This document shows positions 2,136-20,561 of a DNA stretch of 21,029 bases, in pieces. The notes under the pieces are model-generated. The model did not search any database, had not been told where the DNA came from, and was given only the letters and a program-made list of their open reading frames with translations. Source of the DNA: a virus; UHGV virus genome UHGV-1794847, one strand, 5' to 3'. The first letter of the stretch is position 1. Each line of letters starts with the position of its first letter. A program made the translations under genes and the position numbers.

Positions 2136-3428
2136 CTACAACAATGACGGCACTCGTTGAGTTTCAAGTGGGTCACTGACATTGATGCCTGTGTATGCAA
2201 CAAGTCGTTGTATTGGGCCAAGCACGAGTTTTTCGAACATGAGTCGCTTATTCATTGGTGGCACATCTGGCATGTACTTAGGCGTTGGCATTTCACCTGG
2301 CGCAAAGCCAAATGCATCGCAATATTGACGAGAACCAATTGGGATATTTGACAAATCTGACTTTGCTCTATCGACGAAATAGTAGAACACTCTACCGCCT
2401 TCAATCAATGTATATCGTGTTTCCAATCCATGAGCTTTTACAAGTGCGTTATGGTATGCACAAGCCCTGTACTGAGGCAGTACGCCTTTTGCTAACTGCC
2501 ATTCGCCATCATAGCTTAGCACATAGTCATGATACTTGTTTGCATTGACATATGCACAAAGTTTCTCCAAGTCTTGCTCGGCTTCAAAGCGTTTCCATAA
2601 TTTCTGTATGAGCTTTGGATATGTCGCAGAAGTCAATTCACCTCTGAACATTTTCTTGAATGCATAATCAAGCATTTGCCTAACAAGCATTGATGAGCCT
2701 GTTTGAATAAGTTCGATGCCTTTGCCTTGAATGTGCTCAGTAGGGTCTTCGAATACTCGACCATCTACATATATTTGAGCCTTTAAGTACTTTTTCTTTT
2801 GGGCAAATAATGCAGTGTCAGAAATCGTTTCGAGGTCAAATAGCAAAATTGAATTGCCATGACGTTTTGCGAGGTCTGCTGCATATGCCCCATTGAATAA
2901 TTCTTCCATACGATATTTGAATATCGCAAGAATCAAGTCATACCAATTTTTGCCTATGTAGCCAATTGATTTGACAGTTGGCTCAAAGTGAATGTACAAA
3001 GAGTCTGTGTCAATATACAACACTTTGTCTTCATAGGGTTCTTGCTTTGGCGACACAGACAAATCAAAATTGCCCTTCAATTGTGGGTCATTACGCAGCT
3101 TTTCATGCAATTCATAATCACACCACCACTTATTGTTAAGATAGTCATTTGCTACTCGTTCACCAAAGTGAATGAAGTTGCGGCCTTCAGCAGTAATTGA
3201 TTCTGCAACAGCCATATTAAAGAAGTGATAGAAACGATTGCTTGTAGCGCCATATATTGAGTTTCGACAACATTTTGCTGAGACTTGTAGTCCTGCATGC
3301 TTTAGTGATTCTTGCATTGCAAAATCTCTCAATTCAAATAGACGTTCAGTAGACAACTGACTCAAATCACCAGTCAAATCTACTCCATCTATTTCAATTT
3401 TTGACATATCTATCTGAGCTTCTGCCAT
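2136..3428 (-). CDS. Family-B DNA polymerase, C-terminal part (motif B, motif C, thumb)
   Basis: Motif B KCCRNSIYG verified at 3249..3275 (K-x3-NS-x-YG) and motif C YIDTDS at 3000..3017 (YGDTDS-type). Stop TAG at 2136..2138. Start set to ATG at 3426..3428; the track's 3518 start is a TTG codon, and an alternative ATG exists at 3459..3461. Confidence 0.85.
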   Translation of the reverse strand: MAEAQIDMSKIEIDGVDLTGDLSQLSTERLFELRDFAMQESLKHAGLQVSAKCCRNSIYGATSNRFYHFFNMAVAESITAEGRNFIHFGERVANDYLNNKWWCDYELHEKLRNDPQLKGNFDLSVSPKQEPYEDKVLYIDTDSLYIHFEPTVKSIGYIGKNWYDLILAIFKYRMEELFNGAYAADLAKRHGNSILLFDLETISDTALFAQKKKYLKAQIYVDGRVFEDPTEHIQGKGIELIQTGSSMLVRQMLDYAFKKMFRGELTSATYPKLIQKLWKRFEAEQDLEKLCAYVNANKYHDYVLSYDGEWQLAKGVLPQYRACAYHNALVKAHGLETRYTLIEGGRVFYYFVDRAKSDLSNIPIGSRQYCDAFGFAPGEMPTPKYMPDVPPMNKRLMFEKLVLGPIQRLVAYTGINVSDPLETQRVPSLL

Positions 3429-3448
3429 AAGTTGTTTATTTTTGATTT

Positions 3449-3459
3449 TATTGTACAAC
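3449..3459 (-). promoter_or_regulatory. Conserved GTTGTACAATA element (sense strand), 20 nt upstream of the polymerase C-part ATG
   Basis: Plus-strand tattgtacaac at 3449..3459; identical 11-mer also at 8225..8235 and 10317..10327, each upstream of a minus-strand start. Contains a TACAAT -10-like hexamer and the palindrome TTGTACAA. Confidence 0.35.
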
Positions 3460-3496
3460 ATGCAAAACGAGTTTGCACTGTTTTGATACAACGACA

Positions 3497-4459
3497 CTAA
3501 ACTTTTACATGACCACAATCAAACACAGGATAAAATTGCCGTTGTAGCATAGTATTTGTGTCAAAATTGCCATCAATAAGATGTTCGTGTGTGCGCCAAT
3601 TATGCCAATGTTTTTGAATTGTCTGCAAGTTATCTGATTTTTGTGGATTCAATGCAAAGTCTGTTGATAGCACAGGTTCATTGTTCAAATGCGCTTGTAT
3701 TGCTGCAATAACTGCTTCAACAGACATCCACTCAAATGCAGTCACACAAATAAAACCTGCACGCAATGCATCTTGAGTTTTGTAAAAGTGATATGTTGGA
3801 TGAGTTGCTGCGCATTTTGATGCATTTTTGACAAGTGCATCAAAGCTTTTTGCGCTGTTATGCGACACTGTTGGATTGATTTCTACTACGACATTGTCAT
3901 ATCGCAAATCATACAACTTTAAGCCTATTCTGTAGTCATATTCAAAATTTATGCCAAGACGTTCAAATAGCAATGCATGCCAACGTTCATTAAGTTTTGA
4001 CTGTATTTGACCAGATGCTGCTCTGCATTTTGCATGCATGCAAAAATACGGCACATCATATCGCTCTTCACATGTTTGACGCAACTTAGCAATGTTTGCA
4101 GGCCCAAGCTTGCCAAAATGCTTAAGCTTAGTTGCATTTGCTTTGTCAGTATTGCTTGGACCTGCTTTGCCAAAATGTTCAAGCTTTGTCGCATTCGCTT
4201 TGTCAGTATTGCCTGGTCCAAGCTTGCCAAAATGTTTAAGCTTAGTCTGCTTGCATTGCTCTGTTACATATGATAACTGCATATTGTGTTCTACACCATA
4301 TTTTCGCAACATTGCAATTCGCCTGATGTATTTTCTACGAATTTTGCTGTGCGACGTCTTTCTTGGTGCGTATCTAACATATGGTGTATTTGCAATCAAC
4401 TCATCTCGCTCGTTTTCAAGTTTAGCAATACGAGCATCAATCTCTTCTTTTGTCATCAT
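3497..4459 (-). CDS. Repeat-containing putative DNA-binding / homing-endonuclease-like protein, class unassigned
   Basis: ATG at 4457..4459. Three tandem 19-aa repeats (TKLKHFGKLGPGNTDKANA) encoded by a 57-bp DNA repeat; basic N-terminus. Sits between the two polymerase halves, where freestanding endonucleases typically reside. No GIY-YIG or HNH motif recognised; the motif LYDLRYDNVVVEINPTVSH is only loosely nuclease-like. Confidence 0.55.
   Translation of the reverse strand: MMTKEEIDARIAKLENERDELIANTPYVRYAPRKTSHSKIRRKYIRRIAMLRKYGVEHNMQLSYVTEQCKQTKLKHFGKLGPGNTDKANATKLEHFGKAGPSNTDKANATKLKHFGKLGPANIAKLRQTCEERYDVPYFCMHAKCRAASGQIQSKLNERWHALLFERLGINFEYDYRIGLKLYDLRYDNVVVEINPTVSHNSAKSFDALVKNASKCAATHPTYHFYKTQDALRAGFICVTAFEWMSVEAVIAAIQAHLNNEPVLSTDFALNPQKSDNLQTIQKHWHNWRTHEHLIDGNFDTNTMLQRQFYPVFDCGHVKV
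4101..4260 (-). repeat. 57-bp in-frame tandem repeat, about 2.8 copies, inside CDS 3497..4459
   Basis: Units starting near 4108, 4165 and 4222 (gcttgccaaaatgcttaagcttagttgcatttgctttgtcagtattgc and variants); period 57 = 19 codons. Confidence 0.8.
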
Positions 4460-4467
4460 AGCAATTC

Positions 4468-4501
4468 AAAAAATGCAGCAGCAGATGTTCTGCTGCTGCA
4501 T
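4468..4501 (-). terminator. Intrinsic terminator between the SSB-like gene and the endonuclease-like gene
   Basis: Perfect 12-bp stem atgcagcagcag (4473..4484) / ctgctgctgcat (4490..4501), loop atgtt, preceded on plus by an A-run 4468..4472 (a T-run after the hairpin on the minus strand). It ends about 10 nt from the next ATG at 4459. Confidence 0.6.
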
Positions 4502-4543
4502 CGGCAGGTATCTTCACATGTGTTTGAGTTGATTACGATGTGA

Positions 4544-5371
4544 TTAGAATGGCAGGTCGCCATCGTCACCTGCAGCGTCAAATTCAGCTGCAATGTCATA
4601 TACCAACGTCATTGCGATTCGCAAATCGCGCTTCTTAGACTTCAGGCGCATGATATCATGACCAGAATTGTTTGTGATGACTGAACATTCAAACTCTTCA
4701 TTGCCATCAATAAATGACAGCATTGATTTGTGAATTGTGATTGGCGACAAATCAGATGGGTAATTTGCATCAATCACATATTCAAAGTTGTTGTTCTTGG
4801 CAATTAGCCCTCGTTCAGTCGTACGAATCTCAATGCCGGGCAATTCCTTGTCACCAGTATTCAATGAACCATACGATGACATGATGCCAAAGTGATTTGA
4901 CGTCAAATCGAGCTTTCTCAGATTTGTTGTGCTATCAAACAACATTGACATATCATTGTCAGACAGCTCAAAGTAGCCAAGTGATGGCATTGAACAAACC
5001 TGATTGATTTTGAGCTGATTGTTTGAGATTACAATGAGCTCTGCAATTGTATCTGTACCAATTTGTTTGACATAGATTTCAATCATTGCAGATGAGCCAA
5101 ATGCAGCAAGTACTCGATTGTTGAATTGCGTGCCATTGTAAATGAGCGCTTTGACTGTGACATCTTTGAGTGTAGACTCATAATGTTCGCAAATGTCAAG
5201 CACATTAAGTATCTGCGACTTTACAAAGCTACTATTGCCAGCATCAGTTCTGATTCGCTGGTCATTGAGTGAAAAGCTAAGCTTGCCATCGCATTTTAAT
5301 GATGATGCAAACAATGCTCGCAGCATATCAACGTTTGCATTGCGTAATGTAATTTTGTTCAGATTTTCCAT
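4544..5371 (-). CDS. Putative ssDNA-binding protein (SSB-like acidic C-terminal tail)
   Basis: ATG at 5369..5371. C-terminus ...AAEFDAAGDDGDLPF mirrors the acidic tail ending in Phe of bacterial SSB (DDDIPF) and T7 gp2.5; located in the replication module. Fold not verified. Confidence 0.5.
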   Translation of the reverse strand: MENLNKITLRNANVDMLRALFASSLKCDGKLSFSLNDQRIRTDAGNSSFVKSQILNVLDICEHYESTLKDVTVKALIYNGTQFNNRVLAAFGSSAMIEIYVKQIGTDTIAELIVISNNQLKINQVCSMPSLGYFELSDNDMSMLFDSTTNLRKLDLTSNHFGIMSSYGSLNTGDKELPGIEIRTTERGLIAKNNNFEYVIDANYPSDLSPITIHKSMLSFIDGNEEFECSVITNNSGHDIMRLKSKKRDLRIAMTLVYDIAAEFDAAGDDGDLPF

Positions 5372-5439
5372 CTTGTATCTATGTTGTTGATTTTCAATTT
5401 AATATATTGAACAACATTTGTTGACATTTTGCAACATTG

Positions 5440-5814
5440 TCATCGATTGTCGCCTGACCCATGTAGTACGCCTCGTAATTTTCGAGACTGCAGTTTCTGA
5501 ATGTTAAGCTGACAAATGTCAGTTAAGCTGTAGCCCAAATCATGTGCAAGAGTTGCAGCGTACCACATGACATCACTGAGCTCTTTTGCGATTTCCTTGC
5601 GAATGTCTTCATTGTCAAAATCGCCATTCTTGTCTCGAATGACTTTTTTGACTTTGTCTGCAACTTCGCCTGCTTCACCCGTTAAGCCAAGTGTTGGATA
5701 GATAATTGCAGCTGATTTAGGATACACTGCGCTATCAAGTGCAGCAATCTGATATTCATCAATAGTTGAAATCTGTGCATGGTCGATTACGCCATGTTCA
5801 TCTCGTTTAAGCAT
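5440..5814 (-). CDS. mazG: MazG-like nucleoside triphosphate pyrophosphohydrolase
   Basis: ATG at 5812..5814. Motifs LGLTGEAGEVADKVKK and ELSDVMWYAATLAHDLGYSL match the MazG EEXX(E/D) helix signature common in phages. Confidence 0.8.
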   Translation of the reverse strand: MLKRDEHGVIDHAQISTIDEYQIAALDSAVYPKSAAIIYPTLGLTGEAGEVADKVKKVIRDKNGDFDNEDIRKEIAKELSDVMWYAATLAHDLGYSLTDICQLNIQKLQSRKLRGVLHGSGDNR

Positions 5815-5815
5815 A

Positions 5816-6307
5816 TCATTTACGTTTTTGTTTGACTCTCAATCGTTTTTGCATAAATGCTCTTGTAGCTTCACCAAAAGCCATTTCATCTCGTTCACCG
5901 CCGCAAAGCTTTGCAAGCTTATTGAATGTGTCTTGGTCAATCATTGTGTATGTTGAGTTGTTGACCACATGCAATGCAAACTGAATCAGCGGTGTGCCTG
6001 GCTGCAAGCAGAATGGCTCTTTACCTGCATTGTACACTGCAAGATGAATCTCGCCATGATAGTCTGAATCTACAAACTCACTTGTTTTAATGATAAGATG
6101 ATTTCGTGAAATACCCGACTTGTTGTAGGCAATCAATGCATGACCAGCAGGCACAAGTGCTTTGATGCCAGATGGAATTGCAATGCCCTCGCCAGGTTGC
6201 AGCATTGTTTGCACAAAATCATTGGGTATGCAAAAGTCCCATGCGCCAGATTCTGCTGTTGACTTAAAAGGACTTTCTACATTTCTGCATTTTGCAAAGA
6301 ATAACAT
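5816..6307 (-). CDS. dut: dUTPase-like protein (dUTPase/dCTP deaminase superfamily)
   Basis: ATG at 6305..6307, stop TGA at 5816..5818, one nt before the MazG start. Motif-like segments SGAWDF, KSGISRNH, FVDSDYHGEI (compare G-x-ID-x-DYRGE), LIQF, and a C-terminal Gly-rich GGERDEMAFGEAT. Confidence 0.7.
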   Translation of the reverse strand: MLFFAKCRNVESPFKSTAESGAWDFCIPNDFVQTMLQPGEGIAIPSGIKALVPAGHALIAYNKSGISRNHLIIKTSEFVDSDYHGEIHLAVYNAGKEPFCLQPGTPLIQFALHVVNNSTYTMIDQDTFNKLAKLCGGERDEMAFGEATRAFMQKRLRVKQKRK

Positions 6308-6330
6308 ATTAAGTATGCGTTTGTATGTTG

Positions 6331-6675
6331 TTAGTACATTTCTCGTTTAACAAGAGCTTTGCGTTTTGAGCGTAGCCCAGCCCTATTACGCAATTCTACA
6401 GACCAATCACGAATCATTTGCCATGCAATCCCACCACGTTGAATACCACCGTGCTTGAACATTTCATTGCAAATGCCTTGAATAAACACTGCGTCAAACT
6501 TTGTCAGTGCATCGACAATTTGACCATGTGTATCTTCTGATTTGACATCATTGCAAAGCTTAAGCTCATCTACTGAAAGTTCACCAAGCAGCTCATAGTA
6601 ATATATGAGAGCTTTGCGTGCGGCAATTGCTTTTCTTGAATTGCCAGAATAAGACAAAGTTACATGTTTGCTCAT
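6331..6675 (-). CDS. Hypothetical protein (114 aa from ATG)
   Basis: ORF 6331..6681 in the track begins at TTG; first ATG at 6673..6675. 20-nt gap to the polymerase N-part stop. Confidence 0.55.
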   Translation of the reverse strand: MSKHVTLSYSGNSRKAIAARKALIYYYELLGELSVDELKLCNDVKSEDTHGQIVDALTKFDAVFIQGICNEMFKHGGIQRGGIAWQMIRDWSVELRNRAGLRSKRKALVKREMY

Positions 6676-6695
6676 ATTCAATTATTGTTATGGTG

Positions 6696-8201
6696 TTACA
6701 ATTTGATTGCACCTCTACGAGCAAGCTCTTCTTCAATCAATCTAACATGATTGTTAGCATACCAAAATTGCAATTTTTTGTGATAATTGCGAATGTCGCC
6801 AAGCTGTTCTTGAGTTTCTTTATACATTGAAGGCTCTCTATTGTCATACAGACAATTATTGACAGACACAAAGTAATTTGGGTCTGCTTTGTAATGCTCG
6901 ATTTCATCAGGATTTGTCAAACGTCTAATAAAGTTGTCTGGTGAAATATTCGCCGAGCGCATACTTGACGGATACAACGAGTTTGCATCAACACAGACAA
7001 CCATACGAGCCCAATGGTTAAATGGCTGCTTAACAAAGCCGCCCTCAAATGAATGTACAACATTCTCCGGACCGCCTTGAGCGCATACAACTTTACCGCC
7101 ATATTTGTTGTACAAATATGTCATCATGACGCCCTCAGATTGCTTAACTGGTCCTTGACAGTGATTCATGTCAATATTTGTCATATTTGACAATGACATT
7201 ACATTTGATATCAAGTCAGTTTTTGCAGCAATCATCGCATTGACCATCGTATCGACAGCATTATATGCAATGAACGTGCATGGATGATACAAATACAGCT
7301 CTTTAAGTGTGCAATCATAGGGCAGCTTACCTACGCCAAACATACGATGTGCAATATAGTCAAGTCGCAATGACTCTTTTTGCCACACTGAATAGTCGTA
7401 TGTGTCCATGAGTTGCATGTAGTCATCAATGTACTTGTGATATGGCATGCCATTGCCCCAGACAGTTCTGCCAACTGGAGATGCCAATGCTAAATCAATA
7501 TTGTGCATTGCGCATCGATTTTTGATATAGATGCTATCGAAGCCATTGATGTTCCAACCTGTCAATGCAGGAATGTTTTTGAAGAGCTTAGTCACCCAAA
7601 AATGCAACAATTCATGCTCATTTGCATGTTGAAAGATTTTGACAGTCGGACGCTCTTTCAAATATGCAGCAAAGCAATGCTGACCCATGTACTCTTGAAT
7701 GATGTTATTGACAAACTCAAATGCATCGTCCAGTGTTGGGTTTTGTTTGCCACAGCTTTTGCGCAAATCATCGTCATTCAACAAGTCAACAGTTGTCTGA
7801 ATGACACAATTACATTGCTCATCACATGTACTTATTGCATTAATGGGCATTTCAGCTTTGTCAGGCTTTGGAAAGCCATTGCCAATTTCAGTCTCAATAT
7901 CGTAAAAGTACAACTTTGGTCTACGATAAGCAAACAATTCAGCTTTGTCAGCTTCAGGCAATTCAAATAAGAATTGCAGTAAGTCAAATTGATTGAATCG
8001 CTTTGCTGTAACTCGAGTTACTGGCAATTTGCGCCAATCTTGAATATCTGCATATTGCGGCTCTACATGGTCTGATATTTGCCATACTGGAAATTGATAT
8101 GGCTGTTCACAGACAGGATATGTTTTAATATCAATGCCACCTTGCTCATTAACGTATGAAACTTCAATGCCATGTGACAAATATGCTACATCGACAATCA
8201 T
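6696..8201 (-). CDS. Family-B DNA polymerase, N-terminal part (3'-5' exonuclease domain plus motif A)
   Basis: Exo I FYDIETE (about 7893..7901), Exo II-like WNINGFD, Exo III-like YNAVD, and motif A DANSLYPS verified at 6966..6989. Ends with TAA at 6696..6698 about 100 aa after motif A, before any motif B. Start set to ATG 8199..8201; the track's 8237 start is TTG. Confidence 0.9.
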   Translation of the reverse strand: MIVDVAYLSHGIEVSYVNEQGGIDIKTYPVCEQPYQFPVWQISDHVEPQYADIQDWRKLPVTRVTAKRFNQFDLLQFLFELPEADKAELFAYRRPKLYFYDIETEIGNGFPKPDKAEMPINAISTCDEQCNCVIQTTVDLLNDDDLRKSCGKQNPTLDDAFEFVNNIIQEYMGQHCFAAYLKERPTVKIFQHANEHELLHFWVTKLFKNIPALTGWNINGFDSIYIKNRCAMHNIDLALASPVGRTVWGNGMPYHKYIDDYMQLMDTYDYSVWQKESLRLDYIAHRMFGVGKLPYDCTLKELYLYHPCTFIAYNAVDTMVNAMIAAKTDLISNVMSLSNMTNIDMNHCQGPVKQSEGVMMTYLYNKYGGKVVCAQGGPENVVHSFEGGFVKQPFNHWARMVVCVDANSLYPSSMRSANISPDNFIRRLTNPDEIEHYKADPNYFVSVNNCLYDNREPSMYKETQEQLGDIRNYHKKLQFWYANNHVRLIEEELARRGAIKL

Positions 8202-8212
8202 ATTATTATCTT

Positions 8213-8623
8213 TTAGAATAGAGATATTGTACAACAATTTGATTCAGGTTGCCATTCTACAATATGCGCATCAAAGTGTTTGTTAAGCCAATGTGCAAGT
8301 ATGTGTCTATGACAAAATGCAGATGGTCTGCACCAGCATAACAGTACAATGTCTCGTTCACCAGCAAGAAGCTTTATGCGATGCAGCATCAAACTTATCT
8401 GTGACAATGCAGCGTCAAGTTTTGCAGTGTATTGCTCTGCATATTGTGCATTGTCAAGCAAGCCTACTTTATGCAAACGAACAAGTGACATGTAATCAGG
8501 CATGACGTCAGTCCATGTAAAATCTGCTATGAAGCCCTTAGGTTTTGTTGCAGATACTTGAACAAGAAATGCGTTATCAGGCAGATGCCTGCATGCATAA
8601 TATGAAGTCAAGATTCTTGTCAT
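8213..8623 (-). CDS. DUF488-like protein
   Basis: ATG at 8621..8623, overlapping the upstream stop as ATGA. C-terminal RDIVLLCWCRPSAFCHRHILAHWL resembles the conserved LLC..E....CHR.l.a..L block of DUF488 (YeaO-like) proteins, recalled from memory. Confidence 0.5.
   Translation of the reverse strand: MTRILTSYYACRHLPDNAFLVQVSATKPKGFIADFTWTDVMPDYMSLVRLHKVGLLDNAQYAEQYTAKLDAALSQISLMLHRIKLLAGERDIVLLCWCRPSAFCHRHILAHWLNKHFDAHIVEWQPESNCCTISLF
8225..8235 (-). promoter_or_regulatory. Conserved GTTGTACAATA element, 23 nt upstream of the polymerase N-part ATG
   Basis: Plus tattgtacaac at 8225..8235; same 11-mer as at 3449..3459 and 10317..10327. Confidence 0.35.
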
Positions 8624-10275: not shown

Positions 10276-10316
10276 CTTATTTATGATTTGATGTCTTGTA
10301 TTATATTATATGTTGA

Positions 10317-10327
10317 TATTGTACAAC
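10317..10327 (-). promoter_or_regulatory. Conserved GTTGTACAATA element, 41 nt upstream of the ATG of gene 9706..10275
   Basis: Plus tattgtacaac at 10317..10327, followed on the sense strand by ATATAATATAAT (A/T-rich). Confidence 0.35.
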
Positions 10328-10335
10328 GCTAAGTG

Positions 10336-11898: not shown

Positions 11899-12129
11899 TT
11901 ATTCGAAATCCGTGTCGTCTACATTTTCATTAGGGTCATAGATGAGCCATACAAATGCTGCACAGCCAAGTATGAATAAGCCTCCGCCAATGATTGTCGT
12001 AAAAACCGAACCAATCCAATGCTTCATAATATCACCGAGCGGATTCAATGTTTCATAGCCAATCATAAATGCAACAAATACAACTATTATTGCTGCTATT
12101 GCTTTGTTTGTTGTGTTTCGTTTTATCAT
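11899..12129 (-). CDS. Small membrane protein, two predicted TM helices, acidic C-terminus
   Basis: The track start 12210 is GTG; first ATG at 12127..12129 gives MIKRNTTNKAIAAIIVVFVAFMIGY...IGGGLFILGCAAFVWLIYDPNENVDDTDFE. Confidence 0.5.
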   Translation of the reverse strand: MIKRNTTNKAIAAIIVVFVAFMIGYETLNPLGDIMKHWIGSVFTTIIGGGLFILGCAAFVWLIYDPNENVDDTDFE

Positions 12130-12252
12130 TATTGTAGAGGTTTTAGTGTTCTGTATATTATGTTCGAATATATGAGGACATATATTATATATAGATATAT
12201 TACAACACACAAATCATTTTTGCACACTTTTATAAACCAAAATTTCACAAAA

Positions 12253-12561
12253 ATGCAAACACAAGAAGTTTTAACGGATGTCATTGACATGTCACAATCA
12301 GCTCGCAATTATGCGCTTGGCGCTGTATGTGACGCAGAAGAGCATGAAGATGCTGTTGAAGCAGTTATCGAAGATTACATGCAAGGCGCAAGAGAAATGT
12401 ACGTCAAGTTGACTACATTTGTCAATGTCAATGATGCAGTGCCTGCAAATAACTACCCAGTCATTGCAAAGCTTGCAAATGATTCATATACAATTGCAAC
12501 ATTTGAAAATGACATGTGGTCAGTTGACCATATTGTTGCGTGGCGCAAGTTGCACATTTAA
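12253..12561 (+). CDS. Small acidic protein (102 aa); only plus-strand gene in the window
   Basis: ATG at 12253..12255 after an AT-rich divergent intergenic region; TAA at 12559..12561 followed by a terminator. About 17 D/E versus 6 K/R. The track's longer 12019 start would translate the AT-rich intergenic region and the antisense of the neighbouring gene. Confidence 0.55.
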   Translation: MQTQEVLTDVIDMSQSARNYALGAVCDAEEHEDAVEAVIEDYMQGAREMYVKLTTFVNVNDAVPANNYPVIAKLANDSYTIATFENDMWSVDHIVAWRKLHI

Positions 12562-12575
12562 GATTATAGCACAAC

Positions 12576-12607
12576 AAAAAAGTCCGAGCATTGCTCGGAC
12601 TTTTTTG
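12576..12607. terminator. Bidirectional intrinsic terminator between convergent genes
   Basis: Stem agtccgag (12581..12588) / ctcggact (12594..12601) with 5-nt loop, flanked by A-run 12576..12580 and T-run 12601..12606, so it reads as hairpin plus U-run on both strands. Confidence 0.75.
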
Positions 12608-12622
12608 TTGTGCACTGATTGT

Positions 12623-15600
12623 CTATCGAACAATCGATGTAATTGATGCTACTGGTATCGTACCAATGATTGATGTAGTTGAGCGGAAGTCTGCATAGAC
12701 TTTAATGTCAAATGTGAACTCCTTGCCACCAATGTAGCATATGAAATTCATTGTTTTTGTGTATGACAACTTGTTTTGTTGAGTATTGCTGTCAATGTCA
12801 GATGAACCAACTGCATCAGTCATACGAGCCTGGAACAACAATGGTATCAGCAATGCATTGTTTTCACCAGGCTTAACTACATAAGCTGCAGAATCAGTAC
12901 TATTCGAAACTTGCATTTGATTGACTGTTGTCGGATTCAACAGCAAGAATGCGCCACGACTATTTGCGCCGACTGCATAGACGTCGTTGTCTGTGAATGC
13001 GCATTTAGGCGCGTTTTCTGCAGTAAGTTCAAGTGGCAGAATCTGCTGATACTTTGACTTAATAACTGAATTGAACTTAGCAAGCTCTGCAAATGCAGCA
13101 GTCAAAGCAGCTTTTGTTTGTTCATTCTTGTTTGCTGAGTATGCAATCCATGCTGGATGCTGAACAGACATCAGATTATATGCGTCTGGTGATACTGTCG
13201 ACTTCAATGCAATCGCTTCATAATCATCGTCATTCTTATGAACAAATTTGCGATTTGCTGCTTGTGCAGAAGTGTCAATGTTTTGTGTTTCTACAGTAGA
13301 CGATGATGGTGTTTCTGCAGCAACATACAGCTTTTCTGTGCCTGCTACGTTTTTCAAACCAGCATACAATGTTTGACCCATGTATTGACGAGTGCCATAC
13401 GGTGCTAAGATGTCATTGCTGTCATATGCATCGCTGTTAAGCACTACAGGCACGTCATAGACATCTGCAAAATCTTGTAGTTTGTCTGTAATATGCTGTG
13501 ATAAGTCGCCATGATATCGTGGATACAATGAGATGTTTTCTGCACCAATATTGTAGAACTTCAGCCAATATTGTCGAGTAAGCACTTTGCCATAGTTGTC
13601 TGCTGAAGTAATGTCAAACTTATCTGCATAAGTGCCAGCAAACAAAACATTGCTCGAGCCATTCAGAATTTCTGTTTGATTGCCCTCGTCATCTACGATT
13701 GCAACTCGAAGCATTGAACCTTGATTCAGAATGATGTCTTTGAGCTGCGCAACTTCATTGCTAAGTGACAGCAGTTTTTCATATGTTGTCACTTTTGCAA
13801 GTTCTGATGTGAAGAAGCCTGATGCAATGTTTTGAGCATTGTGAGCATAGTAGATGTTGTTTTCTGAGAATGCATCTGCAATATGCTTGATAAGTCCTTT
13901 GTTCTCAAGCATATTTTCAAGAGCCACATTTTGCTTATCAATTGCAAGTTCATCTTTAAGTGTGACGAACATTGCAGAAGCTGCAAGACTTTCTGGGAAC
14001 TGAATGCTTACGATGTTTGACCACTCAGACTCATTGAGCACGTTTGGATAGCCTGCTTCACCAATTGCTTTGACACGGAACTGAACAATCTCATTAGCAG
14101 AAATTGGAATTTCAAGCTGATTGCATGAGATTGCATCAATGGATTCTGAATTGATTGGTTCCCATTGAATGCTACCATCGACAATGATTTTGCGACGAAG
14201 TGGCGTAAATACTTCATTCCATGTGCTAAATGCTGCTGTCGTAATTGTGCCTGCTGCGTTTTCGATGTCAAATGTGTCTGCCTTTGCTACTGTGCCATTC
14301 AATGACGCATATCTGTACTGCACCTTGAACTGCACAATGTTTTGTGCAGCAGTAAATCTACTGATTGCGGGGTCTTGTACTGGCAAGAAGCCTCGAACTC
14401 TAAACTTCGGATTATATAATGCGTCATATGCAGCGCCATTGATATTCAGCATCTCATCAATGATATTTGTGAGTGTTTGCAGTCGTTCTGCTCTTTGCTG
14501 AGTCAACGTAACATATTGCGTAGATGCTTTTTGACGTTCAACGTCATTCTTGAAATTATTTGTATTGAGCTTTGACATCACAGATGCGATATCAGAGTCA
14601 AGTACCGACATTTCTTGCTGAACTGCTCGTTTTTGATTGTACAATGACAAAATTCGAGATTTGTCAGTGTTGTCAATCAAATGTGTGTTAAGCTGAATAA
14701 CTTTGAATGATTCTGCAGACAATTGCAAACGATTTGGCTTAATTGCATATTGCGATGGCGCAAGCATATCAGTAGTCAATGCTGCAATATAAGCGCCAAT
14801 TGATGCGTCGCCATGTGACAACATATACGAGTTTGCATTGACAAGCTCATTTGTTGCAGTACGAATTGTAAGTGTTGCAGTGTCAATCAAAACTGCTGGG
14901 CTGTACTGAGCTACTGTGTTATATGCATCATGCACAGGCGACAAGAACAACACGAATTTTTCAGAATGTCGAAGTGGTACTTCAACGACTTTTCGAACAA
15001 TGGGCTCTACAAAGACGAGGTCAGTGACTTCTACATTCAATGCATTCAAGCCTGCAGTACGCTGCAGTATACATGTTTGCGACAGTTTGTCAATCGAAAC
15101 AATTTGCAGTAATACTGAACCAGTCGGGTCTGATAATGTGTCACCGACTTTCAATGTCAGTGAACCGGCAACCTTTGCGTCAATTGCATCATATACAATG
15201 CTGTCAAGTTTGACAGCAATTGTGCCATTGTTCGCATTTTGCTTCTTGAGAATTTTGAAGCTGCCACTTGATGCTGCTCGTCGTGGTCGCAAATTAACTG
15301 TGAAGTCTTCAAGAGTATAGTCATCATCAGTATGCCAGCCATGCGCATCAATTTCAGCAAGCAATGCAGCATGGCTCATTTCAATGTCTGTTTGTGCCAC
15401 AATTTGCTGCAATGCAGCAAACATGGCATCTGAGCATATGTACTTTGTAACTTGACATTGTTTAAGATATGATGATGCTTGACCAGTCACATCAATTTGC
15501 ACATGCATACCAAGCGCTGTTGTGCGTTCAAACATATCATTGCCAAGTGCGACAACATTGTTATCTTCTGCTATCGTGCCCTGCAAAGTCTTCAATGTCT

Positions 15601-15928
15601 CAGGCTGATTCAGCAAGCTCATATGCACCATTGTACGCATATTGTTGTTTGCATCTACAAGTTGTGCATACAACTGCTCACCATTATTTAAGCCTGTCAA
15701 GACTTTCATATTTTGCTCAATGACAGCCATGCGACGTTGAATTGACGCAAAGCTTGGCACAGTAATGCTTGTTGTGCTTCTATCATCATTTGTCAATGTT
15801 ATTGTGACTGTATCTTCTGATGATGACACTGCAGCTTGCAACACATCAAGATATTGCAGACTGTTATTGTACAGTTGCTTGATGTCTGCCAGCAATTGTT
15901 GCATTGCATTTGTTGAAACTTCTGACAT
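12623..15928 (-). CDS. Large hypothetical protein (about 1101 aa), probable virion structural protein
   Basis: The track start 15976 is TTG; first ATG at 15926..15928 (MSEVSTNAMQQLL). Beta-rich S/T/N/V composition with a central predicted coiled-coil segment (SRILSLYNQKRAVQQEMSVLDSDIASVMSKL...); no ATPase or enzymatic motif seen. Confidence 0.8.
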   Translation of the reverse strand: MSEVSTNAMQQLLADIKQLYNNSLQYLDVLQAAVSSSEDTVTITLTNDDRSTTSITVPSFASIQRRMAVIEQNMKVLTGLNNGEQLYAQLVDANNNMRTMVHMSLLNQPETLKTLQGTIAEDNNVVALGNDMFERTTALGMHVQIDVTGQASSYLKQCQVTKYICSDAMFAALQQIVAQTDIEMSHAALLAEIDAHGWHTDDDYTLEDFTVNLRPRRAASSGSFKILKKQNANNGTIAVKLDSIVYDAIDAKVAGSLTLKVGDTLSDPTGSVLLQIVSIDKLSQTCILQRTAGLNALNVEVTDLVFVEPIVRKVVEVPLRHSEKFVLFLSPVHDAYNTVAQYSPAVLIDTATLTIRTATNELVNANSYMLSHGDASIGAYIAALTTDMLAPSQYAIKPNRLQLSAESFKVIQLNTHLIDNTDKSRILSLYNQKRAVQQEMSVLDSDIASVMSKLNTNNFKNDVERQKASTQYVTLTQQRAERLQTLTNIIDEMLNINGAAYDALYNPKFRVRGFLPVQDPAISRFTAAQNIVQFKVQYRYASLNGTVAKADTFDIENAAGTITTAAFSTWNEVFTPLRRKIIVDGSIQWEPINSESIDAISCNQLEIPISANEIVQFRVKAIGEAGYPNVLNESEWSNIVSIQFPESLAASAMFVTLKDELAIDKQNVALENMLENKGLIKHIADAFSENNIYYAHNAQNIASGFFTSELAKVTTYEKLLSLSNEVAQLKDIILNQGSMLRVAIVDDEGNQTEILNGSSNVLFAGTYADKFDITSADNYGKVLTRQYWLKFYNIGAENISLYPRYHGDLSQHITDKLQDFADVYDVPVVLNSDAYDSNDILAPYGTRQYMGQTLYAGLKNVAGTEKLYVAAETPSSSTVETQNIDTSAQAANRKFVHKNDDDYEAIALKSTVSPDAYNLMSVQHPAWIAYSANKNEQTKAALTAAFAELAKFNSVIKSKYQQILPLELTAENAPKCAFTDNDVYAVGANSRGAFLLLNPTTVNQMQVSNSTDSAAYVVKPGENNALLIPLLFQARMTDAVGSSDIDSNTQQNKLSYTKTMNFICYIGGKEFTFDIKVYADFRSTTSIIGTIPVASITSIVR

Positions 15929-15953
15929 ATGCTTAAATGTAATTTGTTCTTGT

Positions 15954-16005
15954 TTTTGATGCAAGATGCAAAACAATTAAAATTGTTTTGATGCAAAATG
16001 CAAAA
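15954..16005 (-). repeat. Two 20-bp direct repeats TTTTGATGCAA(G/A)ATGCAAAA, 32 bp apart, upstream of the large gene
   Basis: Copies at 15954..15973 and 15986..16005 with one mismatch; sense-strand reading TTTTGCAT(C/T)TTGCATCAAAA, 26 to 77 nt upstream of ATG 15928. Confidence 0.6.
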
Positions 16006-16030: not shown

Positions 16031-16067
16031 AACAAAAAGACTGCTGCAAATTATTGCAGCAGTCTTT
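16031..16067 (-). terminator. Intrinsic terminator downstream of gene 16086..16979
   Basis: Perfect 12-bp stem agactgctgcaa (16038..16049) / ttgcagcagtct (16054..16065), 4-nt loop, plus-strand A-run 16034..16037 giving a T-run after the hairpin on the minus strand. Confidence 0.7.
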
Positions 16068-16979: not shown

Positions 16980-17003
16980 GCTTGATAACGTTGAACTTTC
17001 ATG
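16965..17003 (-). repeat. 16-bp direct repeat acgttgaactttcatg duplicating the start region of gene 16086..16979
   Basis: Copies at 16965..16980 and 16988..17003; the upstream copy creates a second ATG (17000..17002) opening an 8-codon ORF MKVQRYQA whose TGA (16976..16978) overlaps the main ATG. Confidence 0.7.
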
Positions 17004-17188
17004 TGTCTTGTATATGGTCTACGGTGTGTGAAACACTCTACGGTATGATGTTGAAATTGACTGCAAGCAACAATGATGTGACATCTTCGCCCAATAGAAA
17101 TGAACCTGTAGCAAAACCAACGGCATCAAGTTGATTTGTAAACGTGCTCAGCGGCAATGTCAGTATGATGTAGCCTAACTTAACAGAG

Positions 17189-17198
17189 CCCCCCCCCC
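17189..17198. repeat. Homopolymeric C10 tract (G10 on minus strand) in the 287-bp intergenic region
   Basis: cccccccccc at 17189..17198 within otherwise AT-rich non-coding sequence 16980..17266. Confidence 0.8.
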
Positions 17199-17266
17199 GT
17201 GTTTTGCGAGCGATAGTGGTCTTGAGTTACATGTGACATATATGAAATGTTTGTTTGAATATGTAT

Positions 17267-20528: not shown

Positions 20529-20561
20529 AAAAAAACTTCGCATCAATAACTTGATGCGAAG
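20529..20561 (-). terminator. Intrinsic terminator downstream of the partial gene 20580..21029
   Basis: Perfect 11-bp stem cttcgcatcaa (20536..20546) / ttgatgcgaag (20551..20561), loop taac, plus-strand A7 run 20529..20535 giving a T-run after the hairpin on the minus strand. Confidence 0.7.

What the first reader, a model, noticed from the sequence alone, without database searches (positions are those of the whole stretch)
12253..12607. Lone plus-strand acidic ORF, convergent with the large gene across a bidirectional terminator
Every other supported gene is on the minus strand. This 102-aa protein, with roughly 17 acidic and 6 basic residues, is transcribed divergently from an AT-rich region and ends at a symmetric terminator. 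Opposite-strand small acidic genes in phages are often regulators or anti-defence DNA mimics; this is speculative here.
Basis: inference. Interest (0 to 1): 0.45.

Follow-up and report, generated by a model that had tools for sequence, protein, structure and literature searches.

The report
Small acidic phage gene, function unknown
The lone plus-strand ORF is a real, selected phage gene with its own two-way terminator. It encodes a fast-evolving acidic two-domain protein from an undescribed family, and nothing yet shows that it is a DNA mimic or an anti-defence factor.

Summary
ORF 12253-12561(+) encodes 102 aa with 17 D/E and 6 K/R (pI 4.3). It is the only plus-strand gene in about 21 kb. It starts next to the most AT-rich stretch of the window (GC 23.6%). 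It ends 7 nt before a perfect 21-bp palindrome (12569-12613, about -36 kcal/mol on either strand) that also ends the convergent 1101-aa gene.

The gene is real. A syntenic ortholog of 51% identity (L011) keeps the same layout and its own two-way terminator with a different stem sequence; dN/dS is 0.22.

The protein has two modules. The N-terminal part is an acidic helical hairpin (pLDDT 80-95). It also occurs alone, as 52-57 aa proteins between dUTPase and DNA ligase, in another lineage of roughly 100-185 kb phages, some of them from human faecal samples. The C-terminal part is a small beta domain that only weakly resembles DUF551.

No match was found in Pfam, PHROGs, NCBIfam, PDB sequences or fold libraries, and none to T7 Ocr.

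Acidity is conserved across the family, and the gene evolves much faster than the neighbouring large gene. That fits a protein-binding accessory factor. DNA mimicry and anti-defence remain untested speculation, and expression timing is unknown. The cassette is ordinary and the protein family is uncharacterised, so interest is modest.

The parts
12130..12252 (.). AT-rich divergent intergenic region between the 76-aa minus-strand gene and the plus-strand ORF
   Evidence: GC is 23.6%, the lowest region in the window. It is nearly invariant among four close relatives, although the adjacent 76-aa gene differs by about 10%.
12157..12206 (-). Promoter-like element for the leftward 76-aa gene (TTGTAATATATC.ATATATAATATA..CATATATTCGAACATAAT), one copy of a repeated family
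   Evidence: Related copies lie upstream of the 189-aa gene (10276-10335) and upstream of two further genes in the 175-kb relative L055. Promoter function is inferred, not shown.
12228..12237 (+). TTTTATAAAC box ending 15 nt before the ORF start codon; candidate -10-like promoter element of the ORF
   Evidence: The same 10-mer ends 11 nt before the start codon of the 51%-identical ortholog in L011, although the rest of the spacer differs. It is the only copy of this 10-mer in the window. Promoter function is inferred.
12253..12561 (+). Protein-coding gene: 102 aa, acidic, two domains
   Evidence: Translation. It was called independently in several assemblies. dN/dS is 0.22 against the L011 ortholog.
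12283..12417 (+). N-terminal acidic helical-hairpin module (residues about 11-55), motif A..YA...[DE]H.DA[VI]......D[YF]..GA...Y..L
   Evidence: AlphaFold2 with an 18-sequence alignment gives helices 14-24 and 32-54 at pLDDT 80-95. It occurs alone as 52-57 aa proteins in another phage lineage. This half of the window protein has 12 D/E in 55 residues and net charge -9.4.
12418..12558 (+). C-terminal small beta domain (residues about 56-102), weakly DUF551-like
   Evidence: Three short strands are predicted at pLDDT about 60. It is conserved in L011. There is no Pfam hit. Against an HMM built from 8 real DUF551 domains it scores 6.8 bits (window) and 10.5 bits (L011), with 10 of 2000 and 1 of 2000 shuffles reaching those scores. 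hhalign probability is 10.7%.
12569..12613 (.). Bidirectional intrinsic terminator shared by the ORF (+) and the 1101-aa gene (-)
   Evidence: Perfect 21-bp palindrome with a G+C core and a U6 tract on both transcripts, about -36 kcal/mol. The position and architecture are kept in L011 with a different, compensated stem, GUCUGACUA/UAGUCAGAC.
12623..15928 (-). Convergent large gene (1101 aa from ATG 15928; PHROG 29329, function unknown)
   Evidence: PHROG match at 2.5e-155. Homologues occur in phages of Chryseobacterium, Sphingomonas (PAU), Tenacibaculum, Flavobacterium and Prevotella (Lak). The start codon was read from the sequence and matches the 1101-aa call on L001.
11899..12129 (-). Divergent neighbour: 76-aa hydrophobic (probably membrane) protein gene, the first gene of the leftward block that runs to the DNA polymerase
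   Evidence: ORF list and gene calls. The ortholog in L011 is 47% identical. Membrane location is inferred from the hydrophobic sequence.

Best explanation
What is shown. This is a genuine, self-contained gene cassette. It sits at the junction between the block that contains the neck and baseplate genes and the block that contains the replication genes. The genome is a roughly 175-kb, distantly T4-like myovirus related to jumbo phages that mostly infect Bacteroidota. The gene starts at an AT-rich divergent region and ends at a two-way intrinsic terminator that also stops the convergent 1101-aa gene. Its product is a fast-evolving but selected acidic protein of two modules. The N-terminal module is a roughly 45-residue acidic helical hairpin from an undescribed family. 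The C-terminal module is a roughly 45-residue beta domain.

What is inferred. The hairpin module is the working part. It probably pairs into a small helical bundle and uses its conserved acidic surface and its invariant [DE]-H-x-D / D-[YF] / G-A / Y positions to bind a basic surface on a partner protein and block or modulate it. The partner is most plausibly a host or phage protein that handles DNA, because in the only other lineage that has the module it is co-transcribed between dUTPase and DNA ligase. The C-terminal domain would then be a portable add-on for targeting or oligomerisation, as DUF551 is described to be at the C-termini of other modular phage proteins. On this view the protein is an accessory host-interaction factor and not a virion or core replication component.

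The confidence of 0.35 is for the whole statement. The anatomy and coding status alone are about 0.95. The binding mechanism alone is about 0.3.
For: Real gene:
- dN/dS is 0.22 with near-saturated synonymous sites against the syntenic ortholog.
- Both domains are conserved.
- It was called in independent assemblies.

Cassette anatomy:
- AT-rich gap.
- Terminator, conserved with compensatory changes.
- The same three-gene layout, 77 aa(-) | 94 aa(+) | large(-), in L011.
- Absent from the same position in the distant relatives MA9V-2 and MaF61.
- No homologue in 50,697 phage records.

Modularity:
- 52-57 aa proteins consisting of the N-domain alone lie between dUTPase and DNA ligase in every locus examined.

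Fold:
- The helical hairpin is predicted at pLDDT 80-95.

Acidity:
- It is conserved across the family.

Fast evolution:
- The ORF is 50% identical between the window and L011, against 81% for the large neighbour.

Phage-only distribution:
- No relative was found in one genome for each of 185,579 bacterial and archaeal species.

DUF551 as a portable C-terminal domain:
- Described in PMC10834534.
Against: - No binding partner, activity or expression time is known.
- No homology to any characterised inhibitor or DNA mimic.
- The model of the C-terminal half has low confidence, and its link to DUF551 is below family thresholds.
- The dUTPase-ligase context comes from a single phage lineage, so it counts as roughly one evolutionary observation.
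- The invariant His and Asp residues could instead bind a metal or simply cap a helix.
- The TATAAAC box resembles sequences upstream of two genes of the neck/baseplate block. That could mean late expression and a role in assembly.
Confidence: 0.35

Rival explanations
1. The protein is a DNA mimic that blocks a host DNA-binding defence enzyme, such as a restriction-modification enzyme, or another DNA-binding protein such as a uracil-DNA glycosylase or a nucleoid protein.
For: - Conserved strong negative charge of the hairpin module: -0.15 to -0.24 per residue, against -0.24 for Ocr.
- Fast evolution.
- Standalone relatives lie just downstream of dUTPase (adjacent, or one small gene away) in DNA-metabolism operons.
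- Small size, and probable dimerisation of a two-helix hairpin (inference).
Against: - No similarity to Ocr (hhalign probability 2.9%) or to any solved chain.
- The full-length protein is only 16.7% acidic.
- The conserved positions include His, Tyr, Gly and Ala as well as acidic residues.
- There is no evidence of early expression.
Confidence: 0.15
2. The protein is a late accessory or assembly factor, for example a chaperone, for the adjacent 1101-aa protein or for neck and tail assembly. It would be expressed together with the neck/baseplate block.
For: - Adjacency to the large gene is conserved in the window and in L011.
- The upstream TATAAACCAAAATTT resembles TATATCCAAAAATT and CATATCAAAAATC, which lie upstream of the 476-aa and 1101-aa genes.
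- The terminator is shared with the large gene.
Against: - The motif was defined after seeing the sites. In the 20-kb relative locus half of its matches are inside genes.
- Relatives of the N-domain lie in replication and nucleotide-metabolism operons, not structural ones.
- The ORF has diverged to 50% identity while the supposed client is 81% identical.
- More distant phages keep the large gene without this ORF.
Confidence: 0.15
3. The protein is a transcription factor or a modulator of RNA polymerase (an anti-sigma or co-activator type of small acidic protein). It would switch expression between the two gene blocks whose boundary it sits on.
For: - It lies exactly at the boundary between the two blocks, next to a repeated promoter-like element.
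- It is small and acidic, like several phage proteins that bind RNA polymerase (established knowledge of T4 AsiA and gp33; not tested here).
Against: - No helix-turn-helix or other DNA-binding family is detected.
- Its acidity argues against direct DNA binding.
- There is no sequence relation to solved RNA polymerase binders.
Confidence: 0.1
4. The ORF is a chance open frame or a non-coding spacer, and the functional element is only the terminator together with the promoter region.
For: - No match in any family library.
- Very few homologues exist.
- Among the closest relatives, one shows 4 non-synonymous and 0 synonymous changes.
Against: - dN/dS is 0.22 with pS 0.70 against the ortholog, which keeps the frame, a similar length and both domains.
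- The N-domain family has more than 20 distinct members in other phages.
- The strand skews switch sign over the ORF.
Confidence: 0.02

Closest known systems
DUF551 (Pfam PF04448): the portable C-terminal domain of modular phage proteins such as P22 EaA, the Stx-phage Ea22 variant V2, NinX-type proteins and E. coli prophage YfdS
   Same: - It has a similar size (about 45-60 residues) and lies at the C-terminus of a modular phage protein.
- The sequence pattern is the same in the first two thirds: [WF]-[IV]-x-V-x-[DE]-x-[LV]-P, then a short hydrophobic strand, then an aromatic strand, then W.
- There is a V-x-(x)-W-x-x-L ending, seen by eye only.
- Scores against a DUF551 HMM are above the shuffled controls, in the same register for both orthologs.
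- The function of DUF551 is itself unknown (PMC10834534).
   Different: - It does not reach the Pfam threshold, and no hit is listed even at E = 10.
- hhalign probability is only 10.7% and covers only the first 34 columns.
- It lacks the near-invariant HWMPLPxPP ending of DUF551 and has WRKLH instead.
T7 Ocr (gp0.3) and other acidic DNA-mimic anti-restriction proteins
   Same: It is a small, mostly helical, strongly acidic phage protein. The charge density of the standalone hairpin module approaches that of Ocr.
   Different: - No sequence relation and no fold match.
- The full-length protein has about half the charge density of Ocr.
- Its position is mid-genome, not the first early gene.
- Its activity is untested.
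Phage 'morons': independent promoter-gene-terminator cassettes inserted between conserved genes (established concept from lambdoid phages)
   Same: - A single gene with its own terminator and a candidate promoter.
- It lies between two conserved gene blocks and is absent from that position in distant relatives.
- Its orientation is opposite to its neighbours.
   Different: - No compositional difference from the genome: GC 40.8% against 40.2%.
- The genome is probably that of a lytic phage, not a prophage: no relative was found in bacterial genomes.
- The terminator is shared with, and needed by, the neighbouring gene.
- The promoter is not demonstrated.
Standalone 52-57 aa acidic hairpin proteins of uncultured phages, some from human faecal samples (for example in MT835470 and MT835492, and on IMG/VR contigs of about 100-185 kb)
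   Same: They are true homologues of residues about 11-55: 35-55% identity, profile E-values from 1e-10 to 1e-21, and the same invariant H31, D33, A34, D41, G45 and Y50.
   Different: - They have no C-terminal domain.
- They are co-directional with, and overlap, their neighbours inside a dUTPase-to-DNA-ligase operon, and are not separate convergent cassettes.
- They too are uncharacterised.

Membership tests
Protein-coding gene under selection | Excess of synonymous over non-synonymous change, with the frame kept in a diverged ortholog | tested here: met
   pS 0.70, pN 0.34, dN/dS 0.22. Differences by codon position are 36/28/53. The ortholog has 94 aa against 102, in the same layout.
Bidirectional intrinsic (Rho-independent) terminator | A stable G+C-rich hairpin followed by a U tract on both transcripts, lying between convergent genes | tested here: met
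   -35.9 and -35.6 kcal/mol, with A6 and U6 flanks, 7 nt and 9 nt from the two stop codons.
Bidirectional intrinsic (Rho-independent) terminator | The structure, rather than the sequence, is conserved in relatives | tested here: met
   L011 has a hairpin at the same place with a different, compensated stem and the same A/U flanks: -27.6 kcal/mol, z = -7.1.
Bidirectional intrinsic (Rho-independent) terminator | Transcripts actually end there | not testable with these tools
   This needs Term-seq or 3' RACE.
DUF551 (PF04448) | Match to the Pfam model at or above the gathering score (22 bits) | tested here: not met
   No hit at E up to 10 for the whole protein or for either C-terminal domain. A DUF551 consensus written from memory scored 62 bits in the same call, as a positive control.
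DUF551 (PF04448) | Profile-level similarity in a consistent register | tested here: inconclusive
   hhalign probability 10.7%, P = 0.003. A local HMM of 8 real DUF551 domains gives 6.8 and 10.5 bits, with 10 of 2000 and 1 of 2000 shuffles as good, and the same register for both orthologs.
DUF551 (PF04448) | Conserved C-terminal HWMPLPxPP motif | tested here: not met
   The DUF551 alignment has invariant H, W, M, L, P and P. The window protein ends in VAWRKLHI.
Ocr-type DNA-mimic anti-restriction proteins | Sequence or fold relation to Ocr, or to another solved DNA mimic | tested here: not met
Ocr-type DNA-mimic anti-restriction proteins | Very high density of surface negative charge arranged like DNA phosphates | tested here: inconclusive
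   The whole protein has 16.7% D/E and -0.11 charge per residue. Standalone members of the N-domain family have -0.15 to -0.24, and Ocr has -0.24.
Ocr-type DNA-mimic anti-restriction proteins | Inhibits a DNA-binding defence enzyme and is expressed early | not testable with these tools
   This needs expression timing and protection assays.
Moron-like independent cassette | Own terminator, and absence from the same site in related genomes | tested here: met
   Terminator. MA9V-2 and MaF61 have no such gene after the large gene. No homologue in the phage collection.
Moron-like independent cassette | Own promoter | tested here: inconclusive
   A conserved TTTTATAAAC box lies close upstream in both orthologs. 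The sigma-70 consensus scan finds nothing upstream of the ORF and no more sites in the region than chance. The host promoter type is unknown.
Moron-like independent cassette | Base composition distinct from the rest of the genome | tested here: not met
   ORF GC is 40.8% against 40.2% for the window.

The most novel reading that the evidence does not exclude
The acidic helical-hairpin module (A..YA...[DE]H.DA......D[YF]..GA...Y..L) may define a new family of phage-encoded inhibitors of a host DNA-handling or defence protein. Such a family would be a DNA-mimic-like or target-capping factor. It would be shared by two unrelated lineages of large phages: here fused to a DUF551-like targeting domain and expressed from its own cassette, and elsewhere embedded next to dUTPase.
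Probability: 0.15. Interest if true: 0.6.

Novelty: new member of a known kind. Interest (0 to 1): 0.3.

Why it matters
If the acidic hairpin proves to be an inhibitor of a host DNA-handling or defence protein, it would add a new and very small counter-defence or takeover module. It would come from large, uncultured phages whose relatives infect Bacteroidota, a group with almost no accessory genes of known function. It would also give a first functional handle on a DUF551-like appendage.

As it stands, the value is more modest:
- The gene is annotated cleanly.
- A two-way terminator is documented, with compensatory evidence from an ortholog.
- A small protein family absent from Pfam, PHROGs and NCBIfam is defined.

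Tried and rejected
- Library scans. Pfam, PHROGs and NCBIfam scans of the ORF, its orthologs and its neighbours gave no family for the ORF.
- Phage collection. Megablast and tblastn against 50,697 phage records found no match for the locus DNA or the ORF protein.
- PDB sequence searches with two profiles gave nothing significant.
- Word-indexed search with the C-terminal domain profile found only near-identical fragments.
- Fission test. I asked whether the genes next to the standalone hairpin genes encode the missing C-terminal domain. They do not; the neighbours are unrelated small acidic or coiled-coil proteins.
- Paralogues. An HMM search of six-frame translations of the window, the 20-kb relative locus L055, L011 and the loci from two cultured relatives (MA9V-2, MaF61) found none.
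- Bacterial and archaeal genomes held no relative. The metagenome scan added only two more standalone loci.
- Terminator scan. The consensus scan missed the real terminator because full stem extension absorbs the T run, so the hairpin was folded directly instead.
- Late-promoter motif. A candidate motif shared with genes of the neck/baseplate block was examined and set aside as weak. It was defined after the fact, and in L055 half of its matches are inside genes.
- Window-wide RNA scans. Rfam and tRNA scans of the whole window were empty.
- Extending the contig through the 476-aa protein returned only the 16-kb contig already held.

Full report
**1. The observation**

The sequence shows an ATG at 12253 and a stop codon at 12559-12561, giving 102 aa. 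The mechanical ORF list extends the frame back to 12019. That extension runs antisense through the 76-aa gene and is not supported: the N-termini of all homologues align to the 12253 start.

It has the most negative charge per residue of any protein in the window.

Gene calls on three related contigs place every other gene within about 20 kb on the opposite strand.

The 123-nt gap upstream (12130-12252) has 23.6% G+C against 40.2% for the window. It is the most AT-rich place in the window.

Seven bases after the stop codon begins a perfect 21-bp palindrome, 12569-12613. Its G+C core is GUCCGAGC, with A6 on one side and U6 on the other. It folds at -35.9 kcal/mol on the plus transcript and -35.6 on the minus transcript, and none of 200 shuffles does as well. 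The convergent large gene stops 9 nt beyond it.

The consensus terminator scan missed this hairpin because full stem extension uses up the T run.

**2. What genome this is**

The window carries:
- a family-B DNA polymerase in two separate genes, plus dUTPase and MazG;
- a T4 gp13-like neck gene and a baseplate-like gene;
- a 1101-aa protein of PHROG 29329.

That large protein has homologues of 23-31% identity in phages of Chryseobacterium (MA9V), Sphingomonas (PAU), Tenacibaculum (PTm1, PTm5, pT24), Flavobacterium and Prevotella (Lak).

Near-identical contigs of 174.6 and 175.6 kb exist in IMG/VR. The window therefore comes from an uncultured, distantly T4-like myovirus of about 175 kb. Its host is probably a member of the Bacteroidota; this is inferred from the hosts of its relatives.

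**3. Is the ORF a gene?**

The word-indexed search found only relatives of at least 91% identity.

The exhaustive HMMER search added P0006, a 94-aa protein 51% identical over the full length. Its contig (L011) has the same layout: a 77-aa gene on the minus strand, the ORF on the plus strand, and the large gene convergent on the minus strand.

Against this ortholog, synonymous sites are nearly saturated (pS 0.70) while pN is 0.34. This gives dN/dS = 0.22, with differences by codon position of 36/28/53. The ORF is therefore a protein-coding gene under purifying selection.

It also evolves fast. The two phages are 81% identical in the large protein but only 50% in this protein, 47% in the 76-aa neighbour and 36% in the next small gene.

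L011 has a two-way terminator at the same position with a different, compensated stem (GUCUGACUA/UAGUCAGAC) and the same A and U flanks. This is good comparative evidence that the hairpin is functional.

**4. Anatomy of the protein**

Homologues fall into two classes:
- the two-domain form, which occurs only in this phage clade;
- proteins of 52-57 aa that match residues about 11-55 only.

The shared module has invariant H31, D33, A34, D41, G45 and Y50, and near-invariant A17, Y20, A21 and L53.

With the 18-sequence alignment, AlphaFold2 predicts two helices (14-24 and 32-54) at pLDDT 80-95. The C-terminal half is predicted as three short strands at pLDDT about 60, and its model is not reliable.

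The standalone proteins all come from one other lineage of uncultured phages, on contigs of roughly 100-185 kb. Two GenBank records that carry the module (MT835470 and MT835492) are from human faecal samples. There they lie between dUTPase and DNA ligase, co-directional with their neighbours and often overlapping them, in every locus examined.

The whole family is acidic. The standalone proteins carry net -8 to -13 over about 55 residues, or -0.15 to -0.24 per residue. T7 Ocr, computed the same way, has -0.24.

**5. The C-terminal domain**

By eye it follows the DUF551 pattern. I tested this in three ways:
- A DUF551 consensus written from memory scored 62 bits against PF04448. The two C-terminal domains gave no hit in the same call.
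- I fetched eight real DUF551 domains from phage records and aligned them. hhalign against them gave probability 10.7% and P = 0.003, aligning FVNVNDAVP with WISVxERLP.
- A local HMM of those eight domains scored the window domain at 6.8 bits and the L011 domain at 10.5 bits in the same register. These scores were reached by 10 and 1 of 2000 shuffles respectively.

The HWMPLPxPP ending of DUF551 is absent. The result is a weak, consistent resemblance, not membership.

DUF551 itself is described as a portable domain of unknown function at the C-termini of varied phage proteins (PMC10834534).

**6. Searches for a known function**

There is no match in Pfam, PHROGs or NCBIfam and none to PDB sequences.

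No relative was found in one genome for each of 185,579 bacterial and archaeal species, and none in cultured phages.

Distant relatives that keep the large gene (MA9V-2 and MaF61) have no such gene after it.

**7. Regulation**

The leftward half of the AT-rich gap (12157-12206) is one copy of a repeated promoter-like element. Related copies lie upstream of the 189-aa gene in the window and upstream of two further genes in the 175-kb relative.

The ORF's own upstream region has a TTTTATAAAC box ending 15 nt before the ATG. The same box ends 11 nt before the ATG in L011, although the spacer has otherwise changed.

The box resembles sequences upstream of the 476-aa and 1101-aa genes. I defined that motif after seeing the sites, and half of its matches in the larger locus lie inside genes. 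I therefore do not rely on it, and expression timing remains open.

**8. Explanation and rivals**

Shown: a real, independently terminated, selected and fast-evolving gene for a two-module acidic protein that is confined to phages.

Inferred: the acidic hairpin is the effector and binds a basic surface on a partner. That partner is most plausibly a host or phage protein acting on DNA, given where the module sits in the other lineage. The C-terminal domain would be a portable appendage.

I put the anatomy at about 0.95 and this mechanism at about 0.3. The rivals are:
- a true DNA mimic or anti-defence protein, a special case of the same idea (0.15);
- a late assembly factor for the large neighbour (0.15);
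- a modulator of transcription at the boundary between the two blocks (0.1);
- a non-coding spacer (0.02, contradicted by the selection analysis).

**9. Novelty and score**

The cassette architecture and the two-way terminator are textbook features.

The protein family is undescribed, and its acidity and rate of change fit a host-interaction role, but nothing here is surprising to a phage biologist. No function can be assigned without experiments.

Interest is 0.3. Novelty is a new member of a known kind: a small phage accessory gene in a moron-like cassette.

Noticed in passing
window 16980-17266 (G10 run at 17189-17198 on the minus strand): This 287-nt stretch, which contains a 10-G homopolymer, replaces without homology the 150-aa gene that the 175-kb relatives carry between the 203-aa gene and the gp13-like neck gene. 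It is a variable cassette site inside the neck/baseplate block. The homopolymer could also be an assembly weak point.
   Followed up: partly
window 2136-8237 (-): The family-B DNA polymerase is encoded in two separate genes: the exonuclease part at 6696-8237 and the polymerase part at 2136-3518. Between them lie dUTPase, MazG, two unknown genes and a 320-aa gene at 3497-4459 with a weak (E about 9e-4) match to a homing-endonuclease family. Relative L001 has an extra 399-aa gene just downstream of the exonuclease part.
   Followed up: no
window 12157-12206 (-) and 10276-10335 (-); L055 upstream of the genes starting at 2368 and 6137: A repeated promoter-like element of about 50 nt (TTGTAATATATC.ATATATAATATA, in two copies followed by CATATATTCGAACATAAT) precedes several minus-strand genes. 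It is likely a phage promoter family, and its class is unknown.
   Followed up: partly
window 15951-16005 (-): The leader of the large gene carries two imperfect tandem copies of TTTTGCAT(T/C)TTGCATCAAAA(A)CA. The 175-kb relative lacks them, and its gap between the neck gene and the large gene is about 70 nt shorter (86 nt against 157 nt). This may be a regulatory insertion.
   Followed up: no
window 16034-16064 (-) and 20529-20561 (-): Further intrinsic-terminator hairpins with T runs lie after the neck gene and after the gene that runs off the right end of the window. The neck/baseplate block is therefore punctuated into several transcription units.
   Followed up: no
window 12623-15928 versus L011 1992-4874: The 1101-aa protein of unknown function is 81% identical between two phages whose flanking small genes are only 36-50% identical. 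It is conserved across PAU, PTm1, MA9V and Lak-type jumbo phages, yet has no match in Pfam or to PDB sequences.
   Followed up: partly
window 8019-8159 (-), N-terminus of the polymerase exonuclease gene: A very weak tblastn match (E = 15) of the ORF's C-terminal domain falls in this segment, which ends ...DIQDWRKLPV. It is not significant and is recorded only because of the shared WRKL ending.
   Followed up: no
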